Shown: piece by piece, positions 18,684 through 55,411 of the stretch
How positions within the stretch are numbered: the stretch's first letter is position 1
Layout of the letters: every line of letters starts with the position of its first letter
Assembly (NCBI GenBank): GCA_965219845.1
Contig: CBDCOP010000006.1
Span: forward strand, 496,005-560,004
DNA length: 64,000 nucleotides
Reading direction: 5' to 3'
DNA from: Dehalococcoidia bacterium
GTDB taxonomy: Bacteria > Chloroflexota > Dehalococcoidia > Lucifugimonadales > Australimonadaceae
Notes under the pieces: generated by a model
The model's database searches: none
What the model was told of the DNA's origin: nothing
Seen by the model: only the letters and a program-made list of their open reading frames with translations
Program-made: the position numbers and the translations under genes

Positions 18684-19511
18684 ATGGACACGAAACCGTT
18701 GGGAAAGAGCGGCGTTGCCCTGCCGGAGATAGGGCTCGGCACCTGGGAGTTCAGCGGCGACGCCTCCGTCATCCACCGCGCCATCGAGCTCGGCTCGTTC
18801 CTGCTCGACACCGCCGAGTCCTACGGTACCGAAGAGCGTGTCGGCAGGGCGATCGCAGGTCGCCGGGACGAGGTCTTCATCGCGACGAAGGTCTCGCCTT
18901 CGCACTTCCGCCACGCGGACGTGCTCGCCGCCTGCGACCGCAGCCTCAGGGCGCTGGGCGTCGAGACGATCGACCTCTACCAGTTGCACGCACCGTCAGC
19001 CGACGTCTCCATCGAGGAGACGATGGGCGCGATGGCCGACCTCGTAGCAGCGGGCAAGGTGCGCCACGTCGGCGTCAGCAACTTCTCCGTGCGGGAGATG
19101 GCGGCAGCGGAGGATGCCCTCGGCACGGACCTGGTCGTCGAGAACCAGATCAAGTACAGCCTCTTCGACCACCAGTTCGCCGAGACCGTGATCCCTTACT
19201 GCGAGGAGCGCGGCATCATGGTGCTGGCGTACAGCTCGCTGGAGCAGGGCGCGTTCCAGCGTGAGATGCGCCGCAACAAGCGGCTCGTCCAGGTCATGGA
19301 AAGCGTCTGTGCGGAGACGGGAAGGACCGCCGCGCAGGTGCTGCTGAACTGGACGCTCCGCTCGCCCGTCGTCATCACCATCCCGAAGACCAACACCCTC
19401 TCACGCGTGGACGAGAACTGCGCCGCGTCCGGCTGGCGGCTCACCGACGCCCAATGGCACGCGCTCACCGATGCCGCGGGCGCGACCCGCTCCTCCTACT
19501 GGTGGCGGTAG
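18684..19511 (+). CDS. Aldo/keto reductase
   Basis: LGKSGVALPEIGLGTW N-terminus, AKR catalytic-region pattern, 275 aa. Confidence 0.9.
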   Translation: MDTKPLGKSGVALPEIGLGTWEFSGDASVIHRAIELGSFLLDTAESYGTEERVGRAIAGRRDEVFIATKVSPSHFRHADVLAACDRSLRALGVETIDLYQLHAPSADVSIEETMGAMADLVAAGKVRHVGVSNFSVREMAAAEDALGTDLVVENQIKYSLFDHQFAETVIPYCEERGIMVLAYSSLEQGAFQREMRRNKRLVQVMESVCAETGRTAAQVLLNWTLRSPVVITIPKTNTLSRVDENCAASGWRLTDAQWHALTDAAGATRSSYWWR

Positions 19512-21145: not shown

Positions 21146-21634
21146 ATGACCACGCGGTTTGGCATAGGCTACGACGCTCACGTCCTGGAGGAGGGCGTAC
21201 CGCTCACTCTGGGCGGTGTCCGTATCCCGTCGGAGCGCGGGCTCTCCGGCCACAGCGACGGCGACGTCGCCGCGCACGCCATCATCGACGCCCTCCTCGG
21301 CGCGGCTGCTCTCGGCGACATCGGCACGCACTTCAAGGAGGACGACCCCTCTGTTCCGCACGGCGTCACCAGCACGTCGCTCCTGAAACGCACCACCGCC
21401 ATGCTGCGCAGGTCCGGATGGAAGGTGGTCAACGTCGATGCTACAATCGTTCTCCAGCGCCCCCGGATCGCCGAGTACACCCCGGCCATGCGGTGGGCCA
21501 TCGCCGCCTCACTCGGCGTCGAACTCTCTGCCGTGAGCATCAAGGCCACCACGGAAGATGGCCTCGGGTACACCGGCTCGGAATCGGGCGCGGCGGCCAT
21601 GGCCGTGGCATCCATCACTGACGGCAATCCATGA
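21146..21634 (+). CDS. ispF: 2-C-methyl-D-erythritol 2,4-cyclodiphosphate synthase
   Basis: IGYDAHVL...GHSDGDVAAHAIIDALLGA signature; 162 aa. Confidence 0.95.
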   Translation: MTTRFGIGYDAHVLEEGVPLTLGGVRIPSERGLSGHSDGDVAAHAIIDALLGAAALGDIGTHFKEDDPSVPHGVTSTSLLKRTTAMLRRSGWKVVNVDATIVLQRPRIAEYTPAMRWAIAASLGVELSAVSIKATTEDGLGYTGSESGAAAMAVASITDGNP

Positions 21635-24228
21635 AACTCTCCGACACCCTCACCGGCGAGAAGCGCGACTTCCATCCATCTGGCGATGAGGTGCGTATCT
21701 ACGTCTGCGGCGTTACCCCGTATTCCTCCGCGCACGTCGGCCACGCGATGAGCTACATCGTCTTCGACGTGCTCCACCGCTACCTAGAGTTCCGTGGCTT
21801 CAAGGTGCGCCGCGTCCAGAACTTCACCGACATAGACGACAAGCTCATCGACCGCGCCGCCCAGGAGAACACGACCGTCGAGGCGCTCGCCGAGCGCCAC
21901 ATCGCCGAGTACTTCGCGAACATGGCCGCCCTCAACATCCGCGAGGCCGACGAGTATCCCCGCGCCACCCAGGAAGTGCCCAAGATCGTCGAGGTCATCT
22001 CCGGCCTCATCGACTCCCGCCATGCCTACGAGTCCAACGGCGACGTCTACTTCCGCGTCCGCAGCGACGACCAGTACGGCAAGCTCAGCCACCGCTCCCT
22101 GGACGCGATGCGGGCGGGAGCGCGCATCGAGCCGGGTGTGCAGAAGGAGCACCCCATGGACTTCGCGCTCTGGAAGTCCGCCAAGCCCGGCGAGCCGTCG
22201 TGGGAGAGCCCGTGGGGCGGCGGACGCCCCGGCTGGCACATCGAGTGCTCCGCGATGGCCCTCCGCTATCTCGGCGAAAGCATCGACATCCACGGCGGCG
22301 GGCAGGACCTCGTCTTCCCCCACCACGAGAACGAGATCGCCCAGAGCGAGGCGTTCACTGGCATACGCCCATTCGCGCGCTTCTGGCTCCACAACGGCCT
22401 GCTGAACCTGGACGCGCAGAAGATGAGCAAGTCGCTCGGCAATCTTGTCACTATCGACGAAGCACTAGAAGAGTACTCAGCAGACGCCATCCGTCTCTCC
22501 GTGCTCAACGCGCACTACCGTAGTCCCGGCTACTACTCGGACGAGGCGCTCGCCGGTTCGGAACGCGCCGCCGAGCGGCTCCGCGAGGCGGCATCGGCGG
22601 AGCCGAACGCGGGCGCGGGCGATGCGCTCGATGCCTCGGAGACGCAGGCGCGTTTCATTGAGGCGATGGACGATGACCTCAACAGTCCTCAGGCGGTCGC
22701 CACGCTATTCGACCTGGCGCGCGAGATCAACCGGGGTTCGACCGGGGGGCAGGACGTTGCGTCTGCACAGGAGACGCTTCGGGAACTGACCGGCGTGCTT
22801 GGCCTGACACTGGAGGAGCGCAAGGATACAGTCGACGCGGGTCTTGCCGCTCGCATCGAGCGCCTTGAAAATCGGCGAGCAGCCCTGCGTTCCGCTCGTG
22901 ACTTCGAAGGAGCAGACGCTATCCGCACCGAACTTATGGCACTCGGTGTTGAGTTGTCAGATACTCAATCTGCGCGTAACCAAAATGGAGATAATGGTTA
23001 TGAGGATTGGGGTGATGATACCTATGGGAGAAATAGACTGTACTTCGGCGATAACCTAAAGATCTTACGTGAAAGAATTCAAGACGATAGCGTAGACCTC
23101 ATCTATGTTGATCCACCCCAGCTGCTTTCAAATCACAGCTGGCCATCGTTGGATCTCACGGATACTATGCTTGCTAGAAGTACGAGGGTGTTTAACGATA
23201 TCTTGCACTGGGATAGCGAAGAGCCATTTGCTCGCCAAGATATTGCTCGTTTTATTGAAGCGATGAAGGTAGTTCACAACCTGCGCGATGTTCACTATCT
23301 GACTGGCACAGCAAAGAGGATCATTGAATTACATCGTGTCCTCCGTCCTAAGGGCAGCATATATCTCCACTGCAACTCTGATGCAAGTCATTATTTTAGA
23401 TTGCTGATGGATGTCGTGTTCGGCAAAGATAACTTTCGATCAGAAATTATATGGAATAATGCTCATTCTAGTGCACGATTGCAAGAGAAACGATACAGCG
23501 CCGCCCACGACGTAATCTTCTTCTATACTAAAGGTAGAGAATGGACTTGGAACCCTGTCTATACATATTACTATAGACTGTATGGCAAGAAGAGATATCC
23601 GAATGGCGAATTCGATGAAAAATCAAACAAGACTCGTCATTATAGGACTACTAGTTTGATGCGACCAAAAGGAATGAGTGGTTATTCATATTCATGGGAT
23701 GTGAAGCGTCCGATGGATGGAGAATGGACTGCTGACCTTGGCGGAGGCATCGAGAATCCTATATCTGGTTGGGAATACAAGAGAATTGTCTTAGACAAGC
23801 ACCATTGGAGAGTTTCTTATGAAGACATGGTGAAATTTACTCACGACAATAGACTCGCTTATTCTGAAGACGGAATCCCAACGTACAAAACCTATCTGGA
23901 AGAGATGCCGGGTGTTCCTCTACGGGATGTGTGGACTGATATCCCTGCACTAGGCATTCACTCGCGAGAAGGCGCTGGTTATCCCACACAAAAACCCGCG
24001 GCTTTACTTGAACGTATTATCACGGTGTCGAGCAACAAAGGAGACGTAGTGCTTGATCCTTTCTGCGGGAGTGGCACGACGATTGTTGCTTCGGAGCATC
24101 TTGGTCGCAAATGGATTGGTATGGAGGCCTCACATTTTGCGATGACGATGATTGGTAATCGCTTGGTGAAGACTTTCGAAGAGCCGGTTCCCTATGATGT
24201 AGTAAATGAAAATGGCATACGGTCGTAA
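21631..24228 (+). CDS. cysS: Cysteine--tRNA ligase continuing in-frame into a beta-class N6/N4 DNA methyltransferase module (865-aa ORF as given)
   Basis: The N-terminal ~450 aa are CysRS (YVCGVTPYSSAHVGHA, KMSKSLGN). From about 22985 the ORF encodes an MTase: RLYFGDNLKIL, motif IV DPPQ, motif I VLDPFCGSGTT. Confidence 0.8.
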   Translation: MKLSDTLTGEKRDFHPSGDEVRIYVCGVTPYSSAHVGHAMSYIVFDVLHRYLEFRGFKVRRVQNFTDIDDKLIDRAAQENTTVEALAERHIAEYFANMAALNIREADEYPRATQEVPKIVEVISGLIDSRHAYESNGDVYFRVRSDDQYGKLSHRSLDAMRAGARIEPGVQKEHPMDFALWKSAKPGEPSWESPWGGGRPGWHIECSAMALRYLGESIDIHGGGQDLVFPHHENEIAQSEAFTGIRPFARFWLHNGLLNLDAQKMSKSLGNLVTIDEALEEYSADAIRLSVLNAHYRSPGYYSDEALAGSERAAERLREAASAEPNAGAGDALDASETQARFIEAMDDDLNSPQAVATLFDLAREINRGSTGGQDVASAQETLRELTGVLGLTLEERKDTVDAGLAARIERLENRRAALRSARDFEGADAIRTELMALGVELSDTQSARNQNGDNGYEDWGDDTYGRNRLYFGDNLKILRERIQDDSVDLIYVDPPQLLSNHSWPSLDLTDTMLARSTRVFNDILHWDSEEPFARQDIARFIEAMKVVHNLRDVHYLTGTAKRIIELHRVLRPKGSIYLHCNSDASHYFRLLMDVVFGKDNFRSEIIWNNAHSSARLQEKRYSAAHDVIFFYTKGREWTWNPVYTYYYRLYGKKRYPNGEFDEKSNKTRHYRTTSLMRPKGMSGYSYSWDVKRPMDGEWTADLGGGIENPISGWEYKRIVLDKHHWRVSYEDMVKFTHDNRLAYSEDGIPTYKTYLEEMPGVPLRDVWTDIPALGIHSREGAGYPTQKPAALLERIITVSSNKGDVVLDPFCGSGTTIVASEHLGRKWIGMEASHFAMTMIGNRLVKTFEEPVPYDVVNENGIRS
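22985..24228 (+). other. AT-rich, presumably horizontally acquired orphan DNA methyltransferase module
   Basis: Sharp composition break: 23401-23460 has 21/60 G+C against 50/60 in 22561-22620. N6_N4_Mtase motif order is IV then I. No adjacent restriction enzyme gene. Confidence 0.8.
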
Positions 24229-26788: not shown

Positions 26789-28267
26789 CTAGCTTTTCAT
26801 CGCGTCCAACTGCTCGACGATGAGCCCGGCCACCACCGACGGGTTGGCGTTGCCGCGCGTCGCCTTCATCACCTGTCCCACGAGGAACTTGGCCGCCGTC
26901 CCTTTCCCCGCCAGGTAGTCTGCAACCGCTTGGGGGTTCGCGTCTACCGCCTCGGCGACCGCTGCCGCGAGTTCGTTCGAGTCCGATATCTGGACGAGCC
27001 CGAGGTCCCCCACCACGGCCTGCGCGGACTTGCCGGTGTGGAACATCTCCTCGATGGCGCGTTTCCCCTGCGGTGTGCCGAGCGTCCCCTTCTCCAGCAG
27101 GCCCAGCAGTTCCGCGAGCCGCTCCGGCGCCACGGGCGATTCGTGGATCTCCGTATGCGTCTCGTTGGCCAGCCGCCCGAGTTCCGTCAGCGTCCAGTTG
27201 GCGGCAGCCTTGGCCACGCCATCGGAGCCGCCGCTTGCTCTGGCGTGCCGGATCGTTGCTTCATAGTACTCGGCGAGACCGGGCGACCCGGTCAGCAGCG
27301 TGGCGTCGTAGGCCGGCAGGCCGTAATCCGCGACGAAGCGCTGCCTGCGCTCCTCCGGCAGTTCCGGCAGCAGTTCCTCTATCTCCGCAACCCACGCCGG
27401 GTCCACGTTGAGCGGCGGCAGGTCCGGCTCAGGGAAGTAGCGGTAGTCGTTCGCCTCTTCCTTGCTGCGCAGCGATGTGGTGACGCCCTTGTTCTCCAGC
27501 CAGCCGCGCGTCTCCTGAATGACGCGGCCGCCGGAGTCCAGCACCTTCGCCTGGCGCTCGACCTCGTGCTCGATGGCGCGGAAGACCGAGCGGAACGAGT
27601 TCATGTTCTTGACCTCGACCTTCGTGCCGAACCGGTCGCTGCCCGTCGGGCGGATGCTGACGTTGGCGTCGCACCGGAACGAACCCTCGTCCATATTGGC
27701 CGTGGAGACGCCCAGGTAGCGCAGGATGGTCTGGTAGGACATGAGGTATTGCCGGGCCTCCTCCGCGGAGCGGATGTCCGGTCGGCTGACCATCTCGACC
27801 AGCGGCACCCCGGAGCGGTTCACGTCCACGAGCGAGTAGCCTTCGCCGGTGGCCGCATCGGTGAGGTGGCTCAGCTTGGCGACGTCCTCCTCCATGTGGA
27901 CGCGCTCGATACCGACGCGTCGGCGTTCGCCTTCCACGTTCACGTCCAGATAGCCGTTGACGCAGAGCGGGAGGTCGTACTGGGAGATCTGGTAGCCCTT
28001 CATCAGGTCGGGGTAGGGGTAGTTCTTGCGGTCGAACTTGCTGTGGGAGGGGATGCTGCAGTGGAGCGCCAGCCCAATCATGATGATGGAGCGGATGGCC
28101 TCACGGTTGATGACCGGCAGGGAGCCGGGCAGCCCGAGACAGACGGGACAGACACGGGTGTTGGGCTCGGCGTTCTGGTAGTCGGCGGGGCAGGCGCAGT
28201 ACATCTTGCTGCTGGTCCGCAGCTGAGCGTGCACCTCCAAACCGATGACTGGTTCGTAGTCGGTCAT
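26789..28267 (-). CDS. gatB: Asp/Glu-tRNA amidotransferase subunit B
   Basis: YEPVIGLEVHAQL N-terminus and full-length GatB including the YqeY-like tail. ATG 28267 chosen over the upstream 28342. Confidence 0.95.
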   Translation of the reverse strand: MTDYEPVIGLEVHAQLRTSSKMYCACPADYQNAEPNTRVCPVCLGLPGSLPVINREAIRSIIMIGLALHCSIPSHSKFDRKNYPYPDLMKGYQISQYDLPLCVNGYLDVNVEGERRRVGIERVHMEEDVAKLSHLTDAATGEGYSLVDVNRSGVPLVEMVSRPDIRSAEEARQYLMSYQTILRYLGVSTANMDEGSFRCDANVSIRPTGSDRFGTKVEVKNMNSFRSVFRAIEHEVERQAKVLDSGGRVIQETRGWLENKGVTTSLRSKEEANDYRYFPEPDLPPLNVDPAWVAEIEELLPELPEERRQRFVADYGLPAYDATLLTGSPGLAEYYEATIRHARASGGSDGVAKAAANWTLTELGRLANETHTEIHESPVAPERLAELLGLLEKGTLGTPQGKRAIEEMFHTGKSAQAVVGDLGLVQISDSNELAAAVAEAVDANPQAVADYLAGKGTAAKFLVGQVMKATRGNANPSVVAGLIVEQLDAMKS

Positions 28268-28340
28268 GAGCAGTTCGATTATAGCGCAGAGCCTGCCGGG
28301 AGCGGCGGCGCGCCGAGAACGACGCGGTACAATCCCCCGC

Positions 28341-29819
<1,479 letters not shown>

Positions 29820-30460: not shown

Positions 30461-30554
30461 TGGCGGGGAGCGGCGGAGTCGAACCGCAACGCGTGGGTTA
30501 GCACGCGCTCAGAGGTGTATCAGGCCTTGTCCCGTCCGACGGGCAACGCTCCCC
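30461..30554 (-). tRNA. tRNA-like gene, 94 nt, Sec/allo-tRNA-like 8/4 fold with long variable arm; anticodon arm non-canonical (loop CUGAUAC, nominal GAU)
   Basis: 8-bp acceptor GGGGAGCG/CGCUCCCC, discriminator G plus encoded CCA, T-arm GCGG-UUCGACU-CCGC, GG in the D-loop, 8-bp variable arm. The anticodon stem has only 3 Watson-Crick pairs. Confidence 0.5.
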
Positions 30555-30560
30555 GTTTCA

Positions 30561-30605
30561 CAGGAACCCGGTCAGTGGGCAATCCCCTCGCTGACCGGGT
30601 TCCTG
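30561..30605. terminator. Perfect 15-bp-stem hairpin (CAGGAACCCGGTCAG / CTGACCGGGTTCCTG, 15-nt loop)
   Basis: Read directly from the sequence. No U-tract, so terminator function is uncertain. Confidence 0.35.
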
Positions 30606-30766: not shown

Positions 30767-31825
30767 ATGCGGCTCCTCGTACTCGTGTTACTGATGGTTC
30801 TCATCTCTGCCTGTGGCCCACCTGGGCCAACGCCAACCGCCATCCCACCGCCCACTGCTACGCGCCCGCCACCCACCGCCACTCCCACTGCAACCTCTAC
30901 GCCGACACCCACTCCTCCAGCCATTCCCGTCCCTACTCCTTCCCTAACGCCTACCCCATCTCCCGTCCCTACCCCGACTCCGACATCCAGCCCCACACAT
31001 ACTCCTACGCCAACCGCGACGGCCACTCCGACGCCGGCGCCACGGCCTACGGCAACACCTATACCGGCGCCGTCCCTCACCGCGCCGTTCGATGTGTGGG
31101 TGTGCTTCCTGGACCGCGACGACCGCGTGCGGGACCGGTATGACACCGTGCTGAGTCCGTGCGGGTGGCGGGAGACGATTATTCCGGACGCTGCCCATTG
31201 GGATAACGCGGAGGAGATACGGGGCAGCCGCCATGCGAACGTGTTTCTGCAACAGGGCTACGACCGGACAGTTGTAATCACAGGAGGAGACCTCCGGATG
31301 TCAGAGATGCTGGCCAATGCCATCAGGGAACTATCCCTGCTGCTCCGCATTGGCTTGACCATCTCAAGCACCGATGAGCACTACGACGACCGCTCCGGCA
31401 TCATCTACCTGTCATTCCTCGACGTGGATTGGGTGCTGTGTGGAGGCGAGCGGTTTCTCGGCTGTGCCTACTGGCAAGACACTCCCCAGCGGATCGAGAT
31501 AGCGACGCATGGCGTCACCGACGATGTTCTCTTAGGAGTCATCCAGCACGAGCTGCTGCACGTGCTGGCGTTGATGGGCCATGCCGAGAGCGGAATCATG
31601 AGCCATGCCGAAGAGGGGGAGGTTCAATCGACGCTGTCGGACATGGACAGGGCACAGGTCTGGCTGTTCAGCAATCCACTGTTCACGGGAGGAGTCCCGC
31701 TGTCGGCGGTTGAACAGGTGGCGCGGTTCGGTGAGTGGGATAAGCAGCCGCCCACGGACAGCGAGTGCTATACGGACGTGAGGGACGAAGGGCGGAGCCT
31801 CTACGTGAAGTGCACACCGGTATAG
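30767..31825 (+). CDS. Secreted lipoprotein with PT-rich linker and putative zinc-metalloprotease motif (HELLH)
   Basis: Lipobox LISAC, ~90-aa Pro/Thr linker, HELLHVLALMGH motif. Confidence 0.65.
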   Translation: MRLLVLVLLMVLISACGPPGPTPTAIPPPTATRPPPTATPTATSTPTPTPPAIPVPTPSLTPTPSPVPTPTPTSSPTHTPTPTATATPTPAPRPTATPIPAPSLTAPFDVWVCFLDRDDRVRDRYDTVLSPCGWRETIIPDAAHWDNAEEIRGSRHANVFLQQGYDRTVVITGGDLRMSEMLANAIRELSLLLRIGLTISSTDEHYDDRSGIIYLSFLDVDWVLCGGERFLGCAYWQDTPQRIEIATHGVTDDVLLGVIQHELLHVLALMGHAESGIMSHAEEGEVQSTLSDMDRAQVWLFSNPLFTGGVPLSAVEQVARFGEWDKQPPTDSECYTDVRDEGRSLYVKCTPV

Positions 31826-32198: not shown

Positions 32199-33026
32199 AT
32201 GAACAGGCTATCCATCGAGAGGCGGGCGCAGATACTTCAACTGCTCTGCGAGGGTTCCTCGATGCGTTCCGTCACCCGCCTGACCGGAGCCTCCATCAAC
32301 ACGGTGACGAAGCTACTGGTGGATACGGGGGAGGCGTGCATCCGCTACCACAACGAGGCGGTCAACGAGGTCCCGGCGCGTCGTGTGCAGTGCGACGAGA
32401 TATGGGCGTTCTGCTACGCGAAGCGGAAGAACGTGGAGCATGCCGTAGCAGCGCCGGAGGATGCGGGAGACGTGTGGACGTGGACGGGCATCGAGGCGGA
32501 CACGAAACTCATCATCTCGTGGCTAGTGGGGGACAGGGATGCGGAGGCAGCGCGGGTGTTCCTGGACGACATACGGTCCCGCCTGCTGAGCCGAGTGCAG
32601 CTGACGACGGACGGGCACAGGGCGTACCTGGAGGCGGTGGAGGACGTGTTCGGAACGGACGTGGACTACGCGCAGCTGGTGAAGATGTACGGTCAGCCGG
32701 TGGGGGATGAAGCGCGGCGGTACTCTCCGGCGGTGTGCATCGGGGCGCGGAAGGAAGTGGTGATGGGGAAGCCGGTCATGGCCGACGTGAACACGTCGTA
32801 TGTGGAGCGGCATAACCTGACGATGCGGATGAGCATGAGGCGGTTCACGCGGTTGACCAACGCCTTCTCGAAGAAGGTGGAGAACCACGCCTACGCCGCC
32901 GCAATCTACTTCGTGTACTACAACTTCTGTCGAACGCACAAGAGCCTGGGCATGACGCCCGCAATGGCATCGGGCTTGGCAGCGGAGCCGCACACGATGG
33001 CTTGGCTGGCCAGCCTTTCAAACTGA
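32199..33026 (+). CDS. IS1-family transposase (single ORF with N-terminal HTH); element ends not resolved
   Basis: The pattern CDEIWAF...W.W...D..TKLI...TTDG...Y and [27 protein letters not shown] mirrors IS1 InsB (VERHNLNLRQ...FSKS). Confidence 0.8.
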
Positions 33027-40222: not shown

Positions 40223-41407
40223 ATGACGCGTCCCATCCTGCTCGCACTCCTGGAGGTCAAGCGCTTCCTCGCCGACCGCGGTGCGCTCGCGTTCAGCATC
40301 GCGCTCCCCATCGTCCTGTTCGCCCTCATGCTCGGTGTATTCGGTGGCGAGGCGTCGTTCAACGACACCGCCCACGTCGTCGACCTCGACGGCGGAGACG
40401 CAGCGCGCGAACTGATCGAACGTATCGAGGACGTAGAAGGCCTCGATGTCAGGCTGTACACGGAAGCGAAGCTGGACGACGCGCTCGACCGGTCCGCCGT
40501 TTTGACCGGGTTCGTCATCCCTGCGGGGTTCACGGCTGCGCTTGAGGGCGGCACTCCTGCCGCCATACATGTCAGGCGGCGCGGCAGCGGCGGCGCCTCA
40601 GGGCAGATCACGGCGTCCATCGTACGGGGCGTGGCGGACGGCCTCGCCTCCGAGTACGAGCTGCGCCGTGCGCTCGCCGCCCTCGTCAGCGATGCGACGC
40701 CGCCGGAGCGCGTCGAAGCCCAGACCGGGATCCTCCTCGCCGATGCCCGCAGGGAGCCTCCCGTCCGCGTCGTCAACCAGACGCTCGTTGAGCAGGAAGA
40801 GGAGGAGGACATCCTAGACCGCCTGCTCCCCGGCGTCATCGTCATGTTCCTGCTCTTCTCCGTGACGCTGAGCGCCCAGACCCTCATCGAAGAGCGGCGC
40901 AACGGCACGCTGGAACGCTTGCTCACGACCCAGTTGAATGCCGGTGAACTCTTCGCAGGGAAGTTCCTGGCAGGGGTCAGCCGGGGCATGCTGCAGACCC
41001 TCGTGCTCCTCGTGCTGGCATTCGTCGTGCTGCGGGTCGGGGGACTGAGCGCGCTCGCTCAGAGCGCCGTCCTGGCGCTCGTGGTCTCCGCCGCTGCCAG
41101 CGCGATAGCTCTCGTCATCGCCACCGTGGCGCGGACGGACGATCAGGCGACGTGGGCCGCCGTGTTCGTCACCATGTTCATGACCGTTTTCGGCGGCACG
41201 TTCTTCCCCATCGGCGACTCCGGCACGCTCGAACTCTTCAGCAGGTTCACGCTCAATCGATACGCCATCGACGCCTACGAGGGCATCCTCGCCGAGACGG
41301 CCACACTTGGGGACGCTACATCCGAGGTCGCCATTCTCGGCAGCGTTGCGCTGGTGTGCCTCGTCATCGCGCGTGTGCTGTTCCGCGTCTCGTCGGAGAC
41401 GAAGTGA
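40223..41407 (+). CDS. ABC-2 family permease
   Basis: N-terminal TM helix, large extracytoplasmic loop, C-terminal multi-TM ABC-2 domain. Confidence 0.85.
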   Translation: MTRPILLALLEVKRFLADRGALAFSIALPIVLFALMLGVFGGEASFNDTAHVVDLDGGDAARELIERIEDVEGLDVRLYTEAKLDDALDRSAVLTGFVIPAGFTAALEGGTPAAIHVRRRGSGGASGQITASIVRGVADGLASEYELRRALAALVSDATPPERVEAQTGILLADARREPPVRVVNQTLVEQEEEEDILDRLLPGVIVMFLLFSVTLSAQTLIEERRNGTLERLLTTQLNAGELFAGKFLAGVSRGMLQTLVLLVLAFVVLRVGGLSALAQSAVLALVVSAAASAIALVIATVARTDDQATWAAVFVTMFMTVFGGTFFPIGDSGTLELFSRFTLNRYAIDAYEGILAETATLGDATSEVAILGSVALVCLVIARVLFRVSSETK

Positions 41408-42588
41408 TGCGCCTCTTCGTACGACAGGCCCTTCTCCTCTCGCTGAAGGACACCCGCCTCTTCTTCAAAGACAGGTTCGCCCTCGGCTTTGCGCTCCTGT
41501 TCCCCATCTTGTTCATCGTCGCCTTCTCACTTGCGCTCGGCGACATCGGCCCGGAGGACGAGCAACTGCGGATGGCCGTGGTTACTGAGGAGGACAGCGG
41601 CTTCTCCCGCCAGGTCATCGACGTGCTCACCGCCGCAGAGGCGACCGGTGTTGACGAGTGGGACCCGAAAAGCGCAGGGTTGGCGCTGCACGAAGGCCGC
41701 ATACCCGGCTATGTGCTTTTCCCCGTGGACTTCACGCAGCGCATATTCAGCGGCGGGAGCGCGGAGATATGGGTCGTCACCGCCGACGGTGACCCGGAGA
41801 CCGAAGCCGTGCTGGGCGGGCTCGCGCGCTCCATCGGCGGGCGCATCGGTACGCTCAGTCTCGCCGCGCGTGGTGCGGCCGAACTGGAAGGATTCGGTTC
41901 GTTGGACCTCGTCAAACTCGGCGAACTCGGGGCGGCGCCGCCTTCTATATTCTTCACGACCGAGCAAGTGGGCGACGTGGAACCGTTCAACGCCTCCAAC
42001 TTCACGCTTCCTGGTTACCTGACGATGTTCGTCTTCTTCGCTGCCGCTCTCGGCGCGGAGGCCATTGCCCGCGAGCGGCAGACCCAGACGCTGGAACGCC
42101 TGCTTGCGAACGGCGTGCGCCGCTCCTCCATCGTTGGGGGCAAGATGCTGGCCAGCCTCTACCGCGGCTTCCTGCAGCTCGCCTTCCTCTGGCTGCTGGG
42201 CATCTTCGCCTTCTCCATCGACTTCGGCGCCTCCCCGCTGGCCGTCATCGCCGTCTCCGTGTTCATGGCCGTGGCGTCGTCCGCATTCGGCGTCATGCTT
42301 GCGGCGCTCGTGCGCACGGTGAAGAGCGCGTCGTCCGCCGCGGTGCTGGCGTCGCTTACGCTCGCGCCGCTCGGGGGGTGCTGGTGGCCGCTCTTCATCA
42401 CGCCGGACTGGATGCAGGCGCTCGGGCGCCTCACGCCGCACGGCTGGGCGAACGACGCGTTCAACAAGCTCATGCTCTTCGGCGCGGAGGGGCAGGACGT
42501 TCTCGTGAACATGGCCGCGCTCGCCCTCTTCGCCGTCGGGTTCCTCGCCGTCGCCGTCGCCCGCTTCCGCTCCGTTCAGGCGAACTAG
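41407..42588 (+). CDS. ABC-2 family permease (second subunit)
   Basis: ATGA overlap with the upstream stop. Same architecture as the preceding gene. Confidence 0.85.
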   Translation: MRLFVRQALLLSLKDTRLFFKDRFALGFALLFPILFIVAFSLALGDIGPEDEQLRMAVVTEEDSGFSRQVIDVLTAAEATGVDEWDPKSAGLALHEGRIPGYVLFPVDFTQRIFSGGSAEIWVVTADGDPETEAVLGGLARSIGGRIGTLSLAARGAAELEGFGSLDLVKLGELGAAPPSIFFTTEQVGDVEPFNASNFTLPGYLTMFVFFAAALGAEAIARERQTQTLERLLANGVRRSSIVGGKMLASLYRGFLQLAFLWLLGIFAFSIDFGASPLAVIAVSVFMAVASSAFGVMLAALVRTVKSASSAAVLASLTLAPLGGCWWPLFITPDWMQALGRLTPHGWANDAFNKLMLFGAEGQDVLVNMAALALFAVGFLAVAVARFRSVQAN

Positions 42589-42589
42589 G

Positions 42590-42853
42590 GTGAGTGAGTC
42601 CCGGGATCTGGTGTTCACCAGTCACGCGATTCACGTCATGGCAGAACGAATGATCTCCCGCGAATGGGTGGAGCGTATAGTGGCAGGGCCAATCTCTCGT
42701 ACACCAGACTCGAGCGATGATGAAATCGAACGATTCTTCGGTTCCATCCCTGAGCGCGATGGGCGAGTTCTGCGTGTCGTTGTGAATACTCGCGTTGCAC
42801 CGTGGCGAGTGGTGAGCGTATTCTTCGATAGGAACATGAGAGGCCAGGCATGA
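42590..42853 (+). CDS. DUF4258-family toxin-like protein
   Basis: VFTSHAIHVMAERMISREWVERIV signature. 4-bp overlap with the next gene. Confidence 0.75.
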   Translation: MSESRDLVFTSHAIHVMAERMISREWVERIVAGPISRTPDSSDDEIERFFGSIPERDGRVLRVVVNTRVAPWRVVSVFFDRNMRGQA

Positions 42854-43050
42854 AACTGAATGTCGACAAGAGGTCCGATGCGCTCTATCTGCGCCTCGAT
42901 GATTCGGCCATAGCCGACTCTGAGGAAGTGTCGCCGGGCGTAGTGCTCGACTACAACGATTCCAACGAAGTCGTCGGAATCGAGATGCGCTACCTCTCGA
43001 AGCGTTCCTCGGATTTGAACCTGTACGCCGTGGAGTTGGAGACGGCCTGA
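42850..43050 (+). CDS. DUF2283-family antitoxin-like protein
   Basis: DALYLRL...GVVLDYNDSNEVVGIEM signature; 66 aa. Confidence 0.75.
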   Translation: MKLNVDKRSDALYLRLDDSAIADSEEVSPGVVLDYNDSNEVVGIEMRYLSKRSSDLNLYAVELETA

Positions 43051-43079
43051 CTCCCCGCCCTACCTCCTGCTAACGCAGA

Positions 43080-43110
43080 AGCGCCGGTGGATAATCACCG
43101 GCGCTTTGTT
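43080..43110. terminator. Bidirectional rho-independent terminator (AGCGCCGGTG-gataat-CACCGGCGCT followed by TTGTT)
   Basis: Perfect 10-bp GC stem followed by a T-rich tract, read directly from the sequence. Confidence 0.65.
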
Positions 43111-43131
43111 CGTGTGCTGCGTACTCGCGGT

Positions 43132-43195
43132 CTACTGCCAGCAGTCGAACCCCCAGCCGCCTACGGTGCCCGCTTCCCCTCTGTACAGACGAACT
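43132..43195 (-). pseudogene. Relic 3' end of a LigB-type dioxygenase gene (paralogous to 45597-45660)
   Basis: Encodes ...LYRGEAGTVGGWGFDCWQ*, compared with ...VYRTPAGTGGGWGFGRWQ* at the intact gene. About 120 nt of DNA similarity, including the downstream hairpin region. Confidence 0.65.
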
Positions 43196-43312
43196 AGAGG
43201 CCCCGCCCACTGCCCATGGGTTCGTGGCAAGCCTGCCGATCGACTGCGCTCCGAGTGAGAACCATGCAGATTGCAGCTAGTACTTTCAATCTGCATGGTT
43301 TCTCGCCGCACT

Positions 43313-44099
43313 ATGCCCATGATTGAGCGTGAAGTCACTCCCCGTCTGACCGCCCTGTTCGGGCAATATCCGTTCGTCAGCGTCACCGGCCCACGGCAAT
43401 CGGGAAGACTGCGTTGTGCCGCGCAGCCTTCCCCTATCTGCCCTACGCCAACCTGGAGGCGCCGGACCAGCGGGAGTTCGCCGAGTCCGACCCGCGTGGA
43501 TTCCTCGCGCAGTTCAGCGATGGAGCCATTCTCGACGAGATTCAGAACATTCCCCACCTCCTGTTCTACCTGCAGGTCATCGCCGACGACAGAGGCGGCA
43601 ACGGCCTCTTTGTGCTCACCGGCAGCGAGCAGTCCAGGCTCTCGGACGCGATCAACCAGTCGCTGGCCGGACAGACTGCGCTGCTCCGTCAGTTGCCATT
43701 CTCGCTGGAGGAACGGCAACTGACCGGCGCGAGCGAAGCCGTAGACGACCTCCTCTACTCAGGGTTCTACCCGCGCATCCTCGACCAGAAGCTCGACCCG
43801 TGGCAGGCGTTGGGCGACTATTTCGAGACCTACGTCGAGCGTGACGTGCGCCGGATAGGGGAGATACGCAACCTCTCGAATTTCCGGTGTTTCGTCCGTC
43901 TCTGCGCAGGCCGGGTGGGCCAGTTGGTCAACCTCTCTTCGCTCGGTTCGGACGCCGGTGTTTCCCACACGACAGCGCGCGAGTGGTTGACCGCCTTGGA
44001 AGCGAGCTACATCGTCTTCCAGCTGCCGCCGTTTCACGCCAACATCCGAAAGCGGCTCACGAAATCGCCCAAGATCTATTTCTACGACGTCGGCCTAGC
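43313..44099 (+). pseudogene. AAA+ ATPase (DUF4143-type), 5' part: frameshift in Walker A, then interrupted by IS481-family element
   Basis: GPRQSG|KTALC requires one extra nucleotide at 43402-43407 (GGGAAG versus GGGNAAG). The coding sequence ...YFYDVGLA stops at the IS boundary. Confidence 0.75.
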
Positions 44100-51620: not shown

Positions 51621-53351
51621 TCACAACCTCCCGAACTGCCTCCCGAGCACGTCCGTCGATACGCGGATCACGGTCGGCCTCCCATGCGGGCAGTGCTGCG
51701 GGTTCATCTCCGACGCCAGCGCTTCGCCGAGCGCCGTCATCTCCTGGAGGTCGAGCGTCTGCCCTGCCCGCACGGCGCTGTGGCACGCGATGGACGCCGC
51801 CGCCGCGAGGTGCGTATCCGCGCCGTTGTTCCGCGCCGCGAAGCCATCCAGCGCCTCGGCAACCAGTTTCGCCGCGTCCACGCGCCGCGCCATCACGGGC
51901 ACCGCGCGCACCAGCAGCGTGTCGTCTCCGAACGGCTCCACCAGCAAGCCGTACCGCTCCAGCACTGCGCGCCCTTCGCCGAGCGCATCCATCTGCTGGG
52001 GCGTAAGGCCCACAGCGAGTGGCTCCAGCATCGGCTGGACCTCCGGCGCGCTGTTCGCCCACTGCCGCAGCAGCCGGTAGTACAACACCGATTCGTGGGC
52101 AGCGTGCTGGTCGATCAGGTACATGCCGTCCGGCCCCTCCGCGACGATGTACGTGTTCGCGATCTGCCCCAGCACCCGCAACCGCGACAGCGGCGACGCT
52201 CCCGGCGGAGGCGCGAGCGGCTCGTACGCATCCGCCGCAACAGGCGCGGGCTCCGGCAGCGGCGTCTGCTCCCGCTCCTGAGGCGCGAACGTCATCTCGA
52301 ACGACGGCGCAACAGGCGGAGCAGCGGTCGCGGCCTGTGACAGCAACCCCTCGCCCTCCGCGATGGGCGACGCCGCGAGCAGCGCCTCGCGCACCGCGTG
52401 CTGCACGCTGGAGAACGCGTCGCCCTCGTGGGACAGCCGTACTTCGCGCTTGTTCGGGTGCACGTTCACGTCCACCTCGCCCGGGGGCACGTCCAAGAAC
52501 ACGACCGCTATGGGGAAGCGGCCCTCCATCAGCAGGCCCCGGTACGCCTCCTCCACCGCGACGCCCACCGCGCGGTGCTGCACCCAGCGGCCGTTCACGA
52601 ACAGGCTGACCCCCGTGCGGTTCGCCCTGCTCTGCTCCGGCGTCCCCACCAGGCCCCACACCGGATACGGTCCGGTCCACGAACCGACCTCGATCATCGC
52701 CTGCGCGAGCTCCGCGCCGTGCACGCCCGCGACCGCGTCCCGCAGGCTGCCGTTGCCGGACGTGGCCAGTTGCAGTCTGCCGTCGGTCTTGAGCGTGAAC
52801 TGTACGTGCGGGTGCGCCATCGCCAGGTGGTCCACCGTCTGACGCACGCGCGCCGTCTCCGCCGCGGGCGAGCGGATGAACTTCAGCCGCGCCGGTATCG
52901 TCGAGAAAAGCGCTTCGACCTCGATCGTCGTCCCCACGCCCGAGCCCGCCGCCGACTGGCGCACGACTTCGCCGCCTTCCAGTTCGACCGTCGCCGCCGC
53001 CGCATCTGCTGTGCGCGTCGTCATCCGCACACTCGCCGCCGCCGCGATGCTCGCCAGCGCTTCGCCGCGGAACCCCAGCGTACCGATGCCCGCGAGGTCT
53101 TCCACCGACGCGAGTTTGCTCGTTGCGTGACGCTCGAACGCCAGCCGGACCTCGTCCGCCGGTATGCCGCAGCCGTCGTCGGTTACCCGTATCGACGCCA
53201 GCCCGCCGTGCCGTATCTCGATGCCAACGACGCGTGCACCGGCGTCCAGCGAGTTCTCGACCAACTCCTTCACCACCGACGCCGGGCGCTCGATGACCTC
53301 CCCCGCCGCGATCCGCGCCGCAACCCCCGCAGGCAACACTCGTATCGCCAC
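51621..53351 (-). CDS. mutL: DNA mismatch repair protein MutL
   Basis: IRVLPAGVAARIAAGEVIERPASVVKELVENSLDAG GHKL ATPase N-terminus and C-terminal dimerisation domain. GTG 53351 chosen because the longer ORF N-terminus runs through a repeat element. Confidence 0.92.
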   Translation of the reverse strand: MAIRVLPAGVAARIAAGEVIERPASVVKELVENSLDAGARVVGIEIRHGGLASIRVTDDGCGIPADEVRLAFERHATSKLASVEDLAGIGTLGFRGEALASIAAAASVRMTTRTADAAAATVELEGGEVVRQSAAGSGVGTTIEVEALFSTIPARLKFIRSPAAETARVRQTVDHLAMAHPHVQFTLKTDGRLQLATSGNGSLRDAVAGVHGAELAQAMIEVGSWTGPYPVWGLVGTPEQSRANRTGVSLFVNGRWVQHRAVGVAVEEAYRGLLMEGRFPIAVVFLDVPPGEVDVNVHPNKREVRLSHEGDAFSSVQHAVREALLAASPIAEGEGLLSQAATAAPPVAPSFEMTFAPQEREQTPLPEPAPVAADAYEPLAPPPGASPLSRLRVLGQIANTYIVAEGPDGMYLIDQHAAHESVLYYRLLRQWANSAPEVQPMLEPLAVGLTPQQMDALGEGRAVLERYGLLVEPFGDDTLLVRAVPVMARRVDAAKLVAEALDGFAARNNGADTHLAAAASIACHSAVRAGQTLDLQEMTALGEALASEMNPQHCPHGRPTVIRVSTDVLGRQFGRL

Positions 53352-53373
53352 CGCTACGCCCCCGAGCCTTCTG

Positions 53374-53434
53374 GTCCCCTCTCCCCACAAGGGAAGGAGG
53401 GTGCCGCCCCTGCGGGCCGGATGGTGAGGGTACT
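53374..53434. repeat. Degenerate copy of the 'PLPxGEG' hairpin repeat
   Basis: CCCCTCTCCCCacaagGGAAGGAGGG...GGTGAGGGT. Confidence 0.6.
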
Positions 53435-53487
53435 CCAGCGGGGCAGAGCGGGGTGTCCCGTTCCTGGTGAGCCTGTCGAAGCAGCCA

Positions 53488-53838
53488 TCAGAACCCCAGC
53501 GCCGCGCCCAACTGCTTCGCGTTCGCGCCTGCCATAAGCTTGCCATCCACGACCGCGACGGGGCGCTTCCAGTAACGGGGCTCCTCCGCCAGCAGCGCCA
53601 GCATCCGCTCCTCGGTGAGCGACTCCGGGTCGATGCCGCTCTTCCGGAAGGTCGCCGACCTCAGGTTGAACAGTACGCTCGGGGGCTCGCCGCCCAACAG
53701 CGCCTCGATCTCTTCCTTCGAGAGACGCTGCTTGAAGAAGTCACGCTCCGTGAACGCCACCCCTGCTTGCGAGAGCGCCGCCCTCGCCGTCTTGCACGTC
53801 CCTCACCCCACCCAGTGGTACAGCGCGACGTCGGCCAT
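53488..53838 (-). CDS. ArsC/Spx/YffB-family reductase-like protein with in-frame UGA at the catalytic Cys (motif U-G-T-C); probable selenoprotein
   Basis: GGGAGG RBS plus ATG 53838. MADVALYHWVG-U-GTCKTARAAL aligns with the LYGIKNCDTCKKARRWL pattern of YffB/ArsC. TGA at 53805-53803, same frame as ORF 53488-53760. Confidence 0.7.
53769..53787 (-). promoter_or_regulatory. SECIS-like hairpin GCGAGGGC-GGC-GCUCUCGC, 15 nt 3' of the UGA
   Basis: 8-bp stem (one G-U pair) with a GGC apex, read directly. Same spacing and apex as the hairpin at 8504-8520. Confidence 0.5.
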
Positions 53839-54212
53839 GACATACCTCCCGGTCCATTGGCTCATGGTACGCACCTGCCTTCCGCGGGCGCTACTGCCGA
53901 CGCCGTCATTCCTCCGGAGGCAGGAATCTCGCAGCCCTGAAACGGGGAGCAGCGAAACTTCCGGGGGAAAAGCGGTCCAAAACAGATCATCACCCTGGGT
54001 TCACCTCTGGACCCGGCTCTGCACGTGGACCGTCGGGCAGCCCAAAACAGTCCATCAGCGGTCCTTTTCCGGTCTTTCGCAGTCCATTACGGCTCATATC
54101 GGCCCAGCCCGCCTGCGAGGTCAACATCCATTCCTGTCCGGTGCGGCAACGGGAGTGCTTCGCCGTCACAGATACAGCGTAGCCGCTCACCGGTCATTGG
54201 CGTAAGGGGCCG

Positions 54213-54746: not shown

Positions 54747-55151
54747 TCAGCGCACTGACAGGCGAGTCCAAGCAAGGCCATCAACATGCTCAAAGTGCGC
54801 GTCGGCCGAAACGAGGTCGGCGCCCGTCTCCATGACGTGGGCCGCGATCCAGATGTCGTTCGTCGGGATGGGTCTGCCCTTGGCACGCAGGGACGCTGCT
54901 ATCCTGCCGTAGCGGTCCGCAGTCACCAGTCCAATGGGCACAAGGGACGCGCGGGGACCATCGAGAAAGGCTCTCAGCTGAGCAACGTTCTGCTCGAAGT
55001 GTGCACCCCACCGGAACCCGTAGAGCAGTTCTCCCACGACGACTGCTGAGAGCAACAATTGTTCAGCATCGCGTGCGAGATTCGCAATCTGCTCGTGTCC
55101 ATGCATCAGCAATGTATACGCATTGGAGTCCAGTAGGATCCTCATTCCCAA
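54747..55151 (-). CDS. vapC: PIN-domain toxin VapC
   Basis: ILLDSNAY...acidic residues of the PIN fold...NDIWIAAH. Overlaps the upstream antitoxin gene. Confidence 0.85.
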   Translation of the reverse strand: MGMRILLDSNAYTLLMHGHEQIANLARDAEQLLLSAVVVGELLYGFRWGAHFEQNVAQLRAFLDGPRASLVPIGLVTADRYGRIAASLRAKGRPIPTNDIWIAAHVMETGADLVSADAHFEHVDGLAWTRLSVR

Positions 55152-55411
55152 GCCGACTCGTCGATAGTCTCAAAGTCCTCTATGGCAGCGTTCACCGCGT
55201 CTGCCTCCTCGGATGTCCAGCTACCTATGAAGTGGTCCAACGAATCGCCGATCGTGTCTGCCTTCCCGCCATCATCCGCCAACCCCGCACCTTTCCGCAT
55301 GAGCTTCAAGGCAGCCTGGTTCAGGGAGATCCCATCGCGTGTGGCGAGGCGTTGCATGCTGTCGCTCAGCGCGTCGTCGAACCCTCTAACTGTCAGTTGG
55401 TTCATGTGCAA
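55142..55411 (-). CDS. vapB: VapB/FitA-type antitoxin (RHH-like)
   Basis: QLTVRGFDDALSDSMQRLATRDGISLNQAALKLM N-terminal DNA-binding pattern. 10-bp overlap with vapC. Confidence 0.75.
   Translation of the reverse strand: MHMNQLTVRGFDDALSDSMQRLATRDGISLNQAALKLMRKGAGLADDGGKADTIGDSLDHFIGSWTSEEADAVNAAIEDFETIDESAWE

What the first reader, a model, noticed from the sequence alone, without database searches (positions are those of the whole stretch)
53488..53838. Second UxxC selenoprotein candidate: ArsC/Spx/YffB-family protein with UGA at the active-site Cys
From ATG 53838 (GGGAGG 6 nt upstream) the minus strand reads MADVALYHWVG-TGA-GTCKTARAALSQAGVAFTERDFF.... It continues in-frame into ORF 53488-53760. 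The TGA (53805-53803) sits where ArsC/YffB proteins have the first Cys of C-x-T-C (compare LYGIKNCDTCKKARRWL). Fifteen nt downstream lies the hairpin GCGAGGGC-GGC-GCUCUCGC (53787-53769). It has the same spacing and the same GGC apex as the hairpin in the redoxin gene at 8504-8520. Two independent genes sharing the same arrangement argue against a chance stop codon.
Basis: partly seen in the sequence, partly recalled or inferred. Interest (0 to 1): 0.7.

Follow-up and report, generated by a model that had tools for sequence, protein, structure and literature searches.

The report
Spx/ArsC-like selenoprotein gene, mis-called truncated
This is a real but ordinary selenoprotein gene: a small Spx/ArsC-like redox protein of a sponge-associated SAR202 (Dehalococcoidia) bacterium in which UGA encodes selenocysteine at the active site, a gene that automatic annotation cuts short in every close relative examined.

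Summary
On the minus strand, ATG 53838 follows a GGGAGG ribosome-binding site. Codon 12 is an in-frame TGA (53805-53803), giving a U-G-T-C motif. An 8-bp hairpin with a GGC loop (53787-53769) starts 15 nt after the TGA. The gene ends at TGA 53490-53488.

The selenocysteine reading is strongly supported:
- 82 of 83 related loci, almost all species-level Dehalococcoidia/SAR202 genomes plus three Desulfobacterota, keep the TGA at this position with coding sequence conserved on both sides.
- The hairpin sits at a fixed distance and shows compensatory changes at four pairs. Its first loop base is G in 82 of 82.
- It meets every published bacterial SECIS constraint.
- The alternative start GTG 53760 is not conserved.
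- A Cys homologue and Bacillus Spx place Cys exactly at the U position.

No sel genes lie in the window. However, the genome of an 88%-identical orthologue (SAR202 bin16) is published as having SelA, SelB and SelD.

ArsC-like UxxC selenoproteins and selenoprotein-rich Dehalococcoidia are already catalogued, so this is a new member of a known kind. The protein's substrate is unknown.

A more unusual item seen in passing is a conserved tRNA-Sec-shaped (8/4) tRNA with an Ile GAU anticodon at 30461-30554.

The parts
53845..53850 (-). Shine-Dalgarno-like GGGAGG, 6 nt upstream of the start codon
   Evidence: Read directly from the sequence. The same GGGAGG is present in sister locus L002.
53488..53838 (-). 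Full coding sequence of the 116-residue Spx/ArsC-like selenoprotein (ATG 53838-53836; terminal TGA 53490-53488)
   Evidence: Translation. Pfam ArsC PF03960 scores 44.7 bits (cut-off 24) over residues 7-111 with U read as C. PDB Spx matches at E 3e-11 over residues 4-110. The nearest upstream in-frame ATG lies 11 codons before the TGA in 53 of 82 loci.
53803..53805 (-). In-frame UGA, codon 12, read as selenocysteine (first position of U-G-T-C)
   Evidence: TGA is conserved at this position in 82 of 83 related loci. It aligns with Cys in homologue P0026 and with Cys10 of the Spx CxxC motif. It is retained in RNA-derived contigs of orthologues.
53794..53796 (-). TGC, Cys15, the resolving residue of the UxxC motif
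   Evidence: The three residues after the TGA end in Cys in all 82 loci: GTC, STC, SSC, NTC, SAC and others.
53769..53787 (-). Bacterial SECIS-type hairpin: 8-bp stem, GGC apical loop, starting 15 nt after the UGA (23 nt between the UGA and the loop)
   Evidence: MFE is -11.9 kcal/mol. Across 81 distinct sequences, 96.9% of cells pair, and 46 cells at 4 pairs carry compensatory changes; 0 of 500 shuffles reach this. The first loop base is G in 82 of 82. Third-codon-position variability drops inside the hairpin.
53758..53760 (-). GTG that gene callers take as the start of a truncated 90-aa product; it encodes Val27 of the full protein
   Evidence: Only 13 of 82 loci have GTG at this codon. L002 and L005 have ATA there.
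53352..53487 (-). 136-nt intergenic insert between the selenoprotein gene and mutL. It is a copy of a short repeated element and is absent from sister loci, where the two genes overlap as TGATG
51621..53351 (-). mutL, the downstream neighbour on the same strand (conserved synteny)
   Evidence: Pfam families are given for the orthologous genes. A MutL homologue lies downstream in 32 of the 83 related loci, as it does in the window itself; these include clades only about 45% identical.

Best explanation
The locus 53838-53488 (minus strand) is one gene for a 116-residue thioredoxin-fold protein of the ArsC/Spx superfamily. Its active-site motif is U12-G-T-C15.

Inferred decoding mechanism: during translation, the hairpin 15 nt downstream of UGA-12 acts as a bacterial SECIS. 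It recruits SelB-GTP-Sec-tRNA(Sec) to the ribosome, so that UGA is read as selenocysteine instead of stop. The same gene then terminates normally at a second UGA that has no such hairpin.

Inferred protein function: the mature protein most likely cycles between a selenol/thiol form and a selenenylsulfide (U12-C15) form. It would work as a small redox-active reductase or redox sensor of the Spx/MgsR type. Its substrate or partner is not known.

Shown here: the conserved TGA, the coding conservation on both sides, the covarying hairpin, the family membership, and the alignment of Cys to U.

Inferred only: actual Sec insertion, the presence of the machinery in this particular genome, and the redox role.
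For: - TGA at the same codon in 82 of 83 related loci, from 95% down to about 37% protein identity and in several different gene neighbourhoods.
- Variability is highest at the third codon position both upstream (1.33 vs 1.02/0.91) and downstream (1.45 vs 0.88/0.67) of the TGA, so both sides are coding.
- The hairpin sits at a fixed distance. 96.9% of cells pair. C-G to U-A changes occur in 13 sequences and G-C to A-U in 29 sequences. 0 of 500 shuffles reach this, and sliding the partner columns collapses pairing to 32-67%.
- Synonymous-site variability is suppressed inside the hairpin (0.58).
- All published bSECIS constraints are met: 3-9 nt loop, 4-16 bp stem, G in the first two loop positions, 16-37 nt spacing, MFE <= -7.5 (PMC13188914).
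- Cys stands at the U position in homologue P0026 and in Spx Cys10.
- The genes' genuine stops are TGA 36, TAG 27 and TAA 19, so UGA is not reassigned genome-wide.
- A second gene in the window (redoxin, TGA 8537-8535) has the same layout, and a 39%-identical homologue of it has TGA at the same site.
- Sister genome SAR202 bin16 has SelA, SelB and SelD.
- Dehalococcoidia genomes rank among the ten richest bacterial selenoproteomes (PMC13326102).
Against: - No selA, selB, selD or canonical tRNA-Sec(UCA) lies in the 64-kb window. The rest of this genome could not be examined.
- No protein-level evidence exists (no 75Se labelling, no mass spectrometry).
- The window protein is below the curated cut-offs of every specific NCBIfam model: TIGR01617 scores 54.2 against 75.05, and NF041106 scores 19.1 against 85. 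The functional assignment therefore rests on superfamily membership only.
- Both hairpin arms are coding, so part of their conservation reflects the conserved peptide A-R-A-A-L-S.
Confidence: 0.92

Rival explanations
1. The UGA is a true stop. The functional product is an N-terminally truncated protein that starts at GTG 53760 or further downstream, as gene callers annotate it.
For: All 25 close database homologues are called as 69-105 aa proteins starting after the TGA. GTG 53760 exists in the window.
Against: Only 13 of 82 loci have GTG at that codon, and 33 of 82 have no start codon within 29 codons after the TGA. The 11-12 codons upstream of the TGA are conserved as coding sequence with an SD and an ATG. 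A truncated product would lack the first beta-strand and the CxxC-type active site of the ArsC/Spx fold.
Confidence: 0.02
2. The gene is a decaying pseudogene, or the TGA is a sequencing or assembly error replacing TGC/TGT.
For: A single-base change separates TGA from TGC or TGT. One related locus (L046) does carry a frameshift in the N-terminal region.
Against: The identical TGA appears in 82 independently assembled genomes from different studies and sequencing technologies. It also appears in RNA-derived contigs. No other stops or frameshifts are present, and purifying selection is visible on both sides.
Confidence: 0.01
3. The UGA is recoded, but not to selenocysteine. It could be read as Cys by a tRNA-Sec-like tRNA charged with cysteine, or as Trp or Gly by near-cognate or suppressor decoding.
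For: Sec insertion itself was not observed. A tRNA-Sec-shaped tRNA with a non-UCA anticodon exists in the window, showing that this lineage carries unusual tRNAs.
Against: The SECIS-type hairpin with the G[G/U] loop signature is specific to SelB-dependent decoding. The odd tRNA has anticodon GAU and cannot read UGA. SelA, SelB and SelD are present in the sister genome. UGA serves as an ordinary stop in the same genes.
Confidence: 0.04

Closest known systems
ArsC-like / 'arsenate reductase-like' UxxC selenoproteins. These are 'ArsC-like' in Desulfotalea and Desulfuromonas (Zhang et al. 2006, PMC1794560), 'Arsenate reductase 2, cd03032, UxxC' in the GOS metagenomes (Zhang & Gladyshev 2008, PMC2398784), and 'Arsenate reductase-like protein, UxxC' in recent reviews (PMC9312934, PMC13188914)
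   Same: Same superfamily (PF03960). Same UxxC motif, with Sec replacing the first Cys. Same coding-region SECIS hairpin immediately downstream. Same marine or anaerobe-associated distribution.
   Different: The curated model that the 2026 review attaches to this family (NF041106) is not matched: 19.1 bits for the window protein and 25-45 bits for relatives, against a cut-off of 85. This clade is therefore a separate, Spx-like branch. In the 80 best genome hits it is essentially always the Sec form.
Spx / MgsR family (TIGR01617; Bacillus subtilis Spx, PDB 1Z3E, 7F75)
   Same: Best solved-structure and best NCBIfam match. It aligns end to end (residues 4-110), with U12-x-x-C15 on Spx Cys10-x-x-Cys13. 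Arg60 and the R-P motif (R92-P93) are conserved. Three Desulfobacterota members of the same clade were tested. The two scored (L071 and L076) pass the TIGR01617 cut-off at 82.5 and 75.9 bits against 75.05.
   Different: The window protein scores 54.2 bits, below the cut-off. It lacks the roughly 15-residue C-terminal tail of Spx. It has Pro where Spx has Gly52; that this residue is needed for RNA polymerase binding is from my own knowledge. It comes from Chloroflexota, where no Spx-type regulation is known. It uses Sec instead of Cys.
Glutaredoxin-coupled arsenate reductase ArsC (R773 type, TIGR00014; PDB 1I9D)
   Same: Same fold family. Sec12 corresponds to the catalytic Cys12. The sequence H-x-x-x-[C/U]-G-T-[S/C] is similar, and Arg60 is conserved (residue roles are from my own knowledge).
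   Different: It scores 30.3 bits against a cut-off of 106. PDB ArsC matches only at E 0.0065. No ars operon genes are nearby; the neighbours are mutL, a Ham1-like gene and a CopD-like gene. The second Cys (UxxC) is not an ArsC feature.

Membership tests
Bacterial selenoprotein gene (SelB/SECIS-dependent UGA recoding) | In-frame UGA that aligns with Cys in homologues | tested here: met
   U12 aligns with Cys in P0026 (MADVAIYQYAGCGTCKK) and with Cys10 of Spx.
Bacterial selenoprotein gene (SelB/SECIS-dependent UGA recoding) | UGA and the coding sequence on both sides conserved in orthologues | tested here: met
   82 of 83 loci keep the TGA. Third-codon-position variability is in excess both upstream and downstream.
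Bacterial selenoprotein gene (SelB/SECIS-dependent UGA recoding) | bSECIS hairpin: 3-9 nt loop, 4-16 bp stem, G in the first two loop positions, 16-37 nt between UGA and loop, MFE <= -7.5 kcal/mol (model as given in PMC13188914) | tested here: met
   3-nt loop GGC, 8-bp stem, 23-nt spacing, MFE -11.9 kcal/mol. G is first in the loop in 82 of 82. Covariation is present.
Bacterial selenoprotein gene (SelB/SECIS-dependent UGA recoding) | selA, selB, selD and tRNA-Sec(UCA) in the same genome | not testable with these tools
   None are in the 64-kb window. The rest of the genome could not be fetched. Indirect support: the sister genome SAR202 bin16 (L018) has SelA 1, SelB 1 and SelD 1 (PMC5649159, Table S4).
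Bacterial selenoprotein gene (SelB/SECIS-dependent UGA recoding) | Selenium demonstrated in the protein (75Se labelling or mass spectrometry) | not testable with these tools
   This is an experiment. Only RNA-level presence of the TGA in orthologous transcripts was seen.
ArsC/Spx/YffB superfamily (Pfam PF03960) | Score above the Pfam gathering threshold over the whole domain | tested here: met
   44.7 bits against a cut-off of 24, residues 7-111, profile positions 1-77 of 79.
Spx/MgsR family (NCBIfam TIGR01617) | Score at or above the curated cut-off of 75.05 bits | tested here: not met
   The window protein scores 54.2 bits. Other Dehalococcoidia members score 49.5-66.6. Two Desulfobacterota members (L071, L076) score 82.5 and 75.9 and pass.
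ArsC family (seleno)protein, NCBIfam NF041106 | Score at or above the curated cut-off of 85 bits | tested here: not met
   19.1 bits for the window protein; 25-45 bits for relatives.
Arsenate reductase ArsC (NCBIfam TIGR00014) | Score at or above the curated cut-off of 106 bits; ars operon context | tested here: not met
   30.3 bits. The neighbours are mutL, a Ham1-like gene and a CopD-like gene, not ars genes.

The most novel reading that the evidence does not exclude
This may be a distinct Spx-like selenoprotein clade that is essentially obligately Sec-containing across SAR202/Dehalococcoidia and is not captured by any curated selenoprotein model. In several clades it sits immediately upstream of mutL. 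It could act as a selenol-based redox sensor or regulator, for example one that couples oxidative stress to mismatch repair, rather than as a simple reductase.
Probability: 0.12. Interest if true: 0.55.

Novelty: new member of a known kind. Interest (0 to 1): 0.3.

Why it matters
The practical value lies in annotation. Every close homologue in the protein database is recorded as a 69-105 aa fragment lacking its active site. No curated NCBIfam model reaches this clade. Automated pipelines will therefore keep missing it in SAR202 genomes, which are abundant in the deep ocean and in sponges.

The finding adds a well-supported, covarying SECIS alignment of 81 distinct sequences that could seed a family model. 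It also confirms that this genome uses selenocysteine.

Biologically it is not surprising. ArsC-like UxxC selenoproteins have been listed since 2006-2008, and Dehalococcoidia are known to have very large selenoproteomes.

Tried and rejected
1. Rfam at gathering thresholds over the whole window found nothing. A permissive scan of 53700-53900 gave only a chance osmY hit; bacterial coding-region SECIS elements are not matched there.

2. It found only the gene itself (70.8 bits). The next hits, at 13.5 and 11.7 bits, lack the hairpin. The redoxin SECIS at 8504-8520 was not recovered, because the model is dominated by family-specific coding sequence.

3. A motif scan of all six frames of the window for SelB/EF-Tu G1, SelD and SelA signatures found nothing. 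I read ten long ORFs by eye; they look like an AlaRS fragment, a Rieske oxygenase, AroKB, chorismate synthase, amidohydrolases and similar, with no sel genes among them. These assignments are by eye only and were not tested against a family library.

4. ARAGORN on 60 related loci found no tRNA-Sec.

5. A scan of the window for other in-frame TGAs with good coding signal on both sides found only the two known candidates with a redox motif and hairpin. The rest look like wrong-frame artefacts.

The fold assignment therefore rests on Pfam and on PDB sequence matches.

7. The idea that the 94-nt tRNA at 30461-30554 is the missing selC was rejected. Its anticodon is GAU, not UCA.

Full report
**Observation**

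On the minus strand, GGGAGG (53850-53845) is followed after 6 nt by ATG 53838. The frame reads MADVALYHWVG, then TGA (53805-53803), then GTCKTARAALSQAGVAFTERDFF... It continues without interruption into the ORF that gene finders call (53760-53488) and ends at a second TGA (53490-53488). Fifteen nucleotides after the in-frame TGA lies GCGAGGGC-GGC-GCUCUCGC (53787-53769). This is a perfect 8-bp hairpin, including one G-U pair, with MFE -11.9 kcal/mol.

The redoxin gene it refers to also has TGA (8537-8535), a 14-nt spacer and CCAACUC-GGC-GAGUUGG.

A hairpin alone is weak evidence in this 65-70% G+C sequence. Of the 1452 TGA triplets in the window, 1.4% have an 8-bp hairpin with an early loop G at 11-20 nt downstream.

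**Family**

With U read as C, the 116-residue protein matches Pfam ArsC (PF03960) at 44.7 bits (cut-off 24) across residues 7-111. Against solved structures the best matches are Spx proteins (7F75, 6GHB, 1Z3E; E about 3e-11). They align over residues 4-110 with U12-G-T-C15 on Spx C10-T-S-C13. YffB and true arsenate reductases match much more weakly.

In NCBIfam the best model is TIGR01617 (Spx/MgsR family) at 54.2 bits, below its 75.05 cut-off. The curated 'ArsC family (seleno)protein' model NF041106 gives only 19.1 bits against a cut-off of 85.

**Comparative evidence**

A protein search returned 26 hits. All 25 close ones are annotated as 69-105 aa fragments (one of 164 aa) that begin after the TGA position. 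A more distant one (P0026, 123 aa) is a full-length Cys form beginning MADVAIYQYAGCGTCKK.

DNA of three homologues and a scan of one genome per species gave 83 loci. They are almost all Dehalococcoidia/SAR202 MAGs, many from sponges, plus three Desulfobacterota/Syntrophales MAGs. Protein identity to the window ranges from 95% down to about 37%.
- In 82 of the 83 loci the codon at the U position is TGA. It is followed by x-x-C (GTC 36, STC 15, SSC 13, NTC 9, and others) and preceded by a conserved hydrophobic strand with an ATG 10-12 codons upstream.
- The single exception, L046, has a frameshift.
- Column variability is highest at third codon positions both upstream (1.02/0.91/1.33) and downstream (0.88/0.67/1.45) of the TGA, so both sides are translated.
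- The proposed alternative start, GTG 53760, is GTG in only 13 of 82 loci; elsewhere it is ATC, CTG, CAC, ATA and so on.
- 33 of 82 loci have no ATG, GTG or TTG at all in the 29 codons after the TGA.
- The genes' real stop codons are TGA 36, TAG 27 and TAA 19, so UGA is not reassigned globally.

**The hairpin**

In an ungapped alignment of 81 distinct sequences, the 8-bp helix is at the same columns in every sequence.
- 96.9% of cells form standard pairs.
- Four pairs show changes on both sides. Pair 26/42 is C-G in 63 and U-A in 13. Pair 29/39 is G-C in 51 and A-U in 29.
- There are 46 compensatory cells, against 14.3 +/- 2.8 in shuffles (0 of 500 reach the observed value).
- Sliding the 3' partner by 1-3 columns drops pairing to 32-67%. 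RNAalifold independently recovers the core six pairs.
- Third-position variability falls to 0.58 inside the hairpin codons, against 1.2-1.45 outside. This is the signature of an RNA structure overlaid on coding sequence.
- The first loop nucleotide is G in 82 of 82, followed by G or U (GGC 48, GUU 13, GUC 9, GGU 4, GUG 4, GGA 3, GGG 1).

The published consensus for bacterial SECIS elements requires a 3-9 nt loop, a 4-16 bp upper stem, G in the first two loop positions (mostly G[G|U]), 16-37 nt between the UGA and the loop, and MFE <= -7.5 kcal/mol (PMC13188914). Every point is met.

**Sec machinery**

The window holds no selA, selB or selD and no tRNA with a UCA anticodon. That says little for 64 kb of a roughly 3-Mb genome, and I could not reach the rest of it. 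Indirect evidence is good:
- Locus L018, whose orthologue is 88% identical and keeps the TGA, belongs to SAR202 bin16 of the Aplysina aerophoba metagenome.
- Table S4 of that study lists SelA 1, SelB 1 and SelD 1 for bin16, and SelA 3, SelB 1 and SelD 1 for bin90, which carries L062 (PMC5649159).
- BSepDB includes only species with the Sec pathway. It places two Dehalococcoidia MAGs among the ten bacteria with the most selenoprotein genes, 49 and 46 (PMC13326102).
- The second candidate in the window is also supported. A 39%-identical homologue of the redoxin (P0028, locus L192) is stored with W at that residue, and its DNA has TGA there.
- RNA-derived contigs of orthologues from sponge and other metatranscriptomes span the TGA and the upstream codons without a change at 53803-53805. 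This shows the TGA is in the transcript, though it does not show how it is decoded.

**Mechanism**

The gene is a SelB/SECIS-decoded selenoprotein gene (confidence about 0.92). The protein is a thioredoxin-fold member of the ArsC/Spx superfamily whose nucleophile is Sec12 with Cys15 as partner. It keeps Arg60 and the R92-P93 motif common to the superfamily (residue roles are from my own knowledge). The most likely chemistry is a selenol/thiol to selenenylsulfide cycle. Whether it reduces a small substrate or acts as a redox switch like Spx cannot be decided from sequence.

Gene context gives no partner pathway.
- In the window and 27 related loci the gene sits between a divergent CopD-like membrane protein gene and mutL plus a Ham1-like gene.
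- MutL also lies downstream in six more distant loci (about 45% MutL identity), giving 32 of 83 related loci.
- Other clades have quite different neighbours, for example rpsF-ssb-rpsR upstream and an enoyl-CoA hydratase gene downstream in L003.

**Comparison with what is known**

ArsC-like selenoproteins were reported in Desulfotalea and Desulfuromonas in 2006 (PMC1794560). 'Arsenate reductase 2 (cd03032, i.e. Spx-type; UxxC)' was among the GOS selenoprotein families in 2008 (PMC2398784). 'Arsenate reductase-like protein, UxxC' appears in the 2022 and 2026 reviews.

The present clade fails the curated model tied to that family (NF041106) and falls just outside TIGR01617. It is best described as a new, Dehalococcoidia-centred member of a known kind, not a new kind. 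The interest is therefore modest (0.3).

**Things that led nowhere**

These are listed in full under 'tried and rejected'.

**Seen in passing**

The most interesting side observation is the '94-nt tRNA-Ile(GAU)' at 30461-30554.
- It is not a normal tRNA-Ile. Rfam matches it end to end to tRNA-Sec (38 bits, below the 47-bit threshold; E 2e-6).
- ARAGORN draws an 8-bp acceptor stem, a 4-bp T stem, a long variable arm, G73 and an encoded CCA. This is the 8/4 architecture described for Chloroflexi tRNA-Sec and for 'allo-tRNAs' (PMC5389517).
- A syntenic metagenome contig (L108, about 80% DNA identity) carries the same tRNA. It has an identical anticodon loop (CU-GAU-AC) and a fully compensated, different variable-arm stem, so the gene is under selection.
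- An IS1-like transposase gene lies 1.6 kb away.

Noticed in passing
window 30461-30554 (-); related copy in L108 (plus-strand coordinates about 1836-1929): A 94-nt tRNA that ARAGORN calls tRNA-Ile(GAU) actually has tRNA-Sec/allo-tRNA architecture. It has an 8-bp acceptor stem, a 4-bp T stem, a long 7-bp variable arm, G73 and an encoded CCA. It matches Rfam tRNA-Sec RF01852 full length at 38 bits (gathering score 47, E 2e-6). The anticodon loop CU-GAU-AC is identical in a syntenic metagenome contig, while the variable-arm stem differs by fully compensatory changes, so the gene appears functional. With G73 and a long arm it would probably be serylated, and it would read Ile AUC/AUU codons. The main text of the allo-tRNA paper (PMC5389517) does not mention a GAU anticodon. 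A 17-bp inverted repeat (30562-30604) lies directly upstream, and an IS1-like transposase gene lies at 32199-33026..
   Followed up: partly
window 8172-8873 (-), TGA 8537-8535, hairpin 8504-8520: This is the second selenoprotein candidate, a membrane-anchored AhpC/TSA-redoxin-like protein with the motif FYRGHF-U-GIC. A 39%-identical homologue (P0028, locus L192) is stored with W at that residue, but its DNA has TGA there, and an equivalent CAACU-AGGUG-AGUUG hairpin follows. This supports Sec decoding in this genome..
   Followed up: partly
window 53352-53487; also about 12321, 21036 and 34862 (+): A short repeated intergenic element contains CCCTCTCCC-N-GGGAGAGGG followed by (T/C)(T/C)GGGGTGAGGGTTGGCGG. 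One copy forms the 136-nt insert between the selenoprotein gene and mutL. In sister genomes those two genes overlap as TGATG. The copies at 12321 and 34862 are nearly identical over about 100 nt..
   Followed up: partly
window 54747-55411 (-): A PIN-domain (VapC-like) gene (54747-55151) and an overlapping small upstream ORF (55142-55411, no Pfam hit, antitoxin-like position) lie between the CopD-like gene and the Trm112-like gene. Those two genes are adjacent in sister locus L002, so this looks like an inserted toxin-antitoxin pair..
   Followed up: no
window 28266-29819 (+): A 517-aa protein combines an N-terminal thioredoxin-like/AhpC-TSA domain with C-terminal NHL repeats. It lies just beside the odd tRNA. 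Its active-site motif was not inspected..
   Followed up: no
L046 5001-5346: This is the only related locus without the in-frame TGA arrangement. The N-terminal region is frameshifted relative to the rest of the gene, either from an assembly indel or because the gene is a true pseudogene..
   Followed up: no
window 16305-18684, 21634-24206, 30767-31825, 41407-43414: These stretches have third-codon-position G+C of about 0.63-0.71, well below the 0.85-0.9 of most genes in the window. They may be foreign or recently acquired DNA. The ORF at 30767-31825 has no Pfam hit..
   Followed up: no
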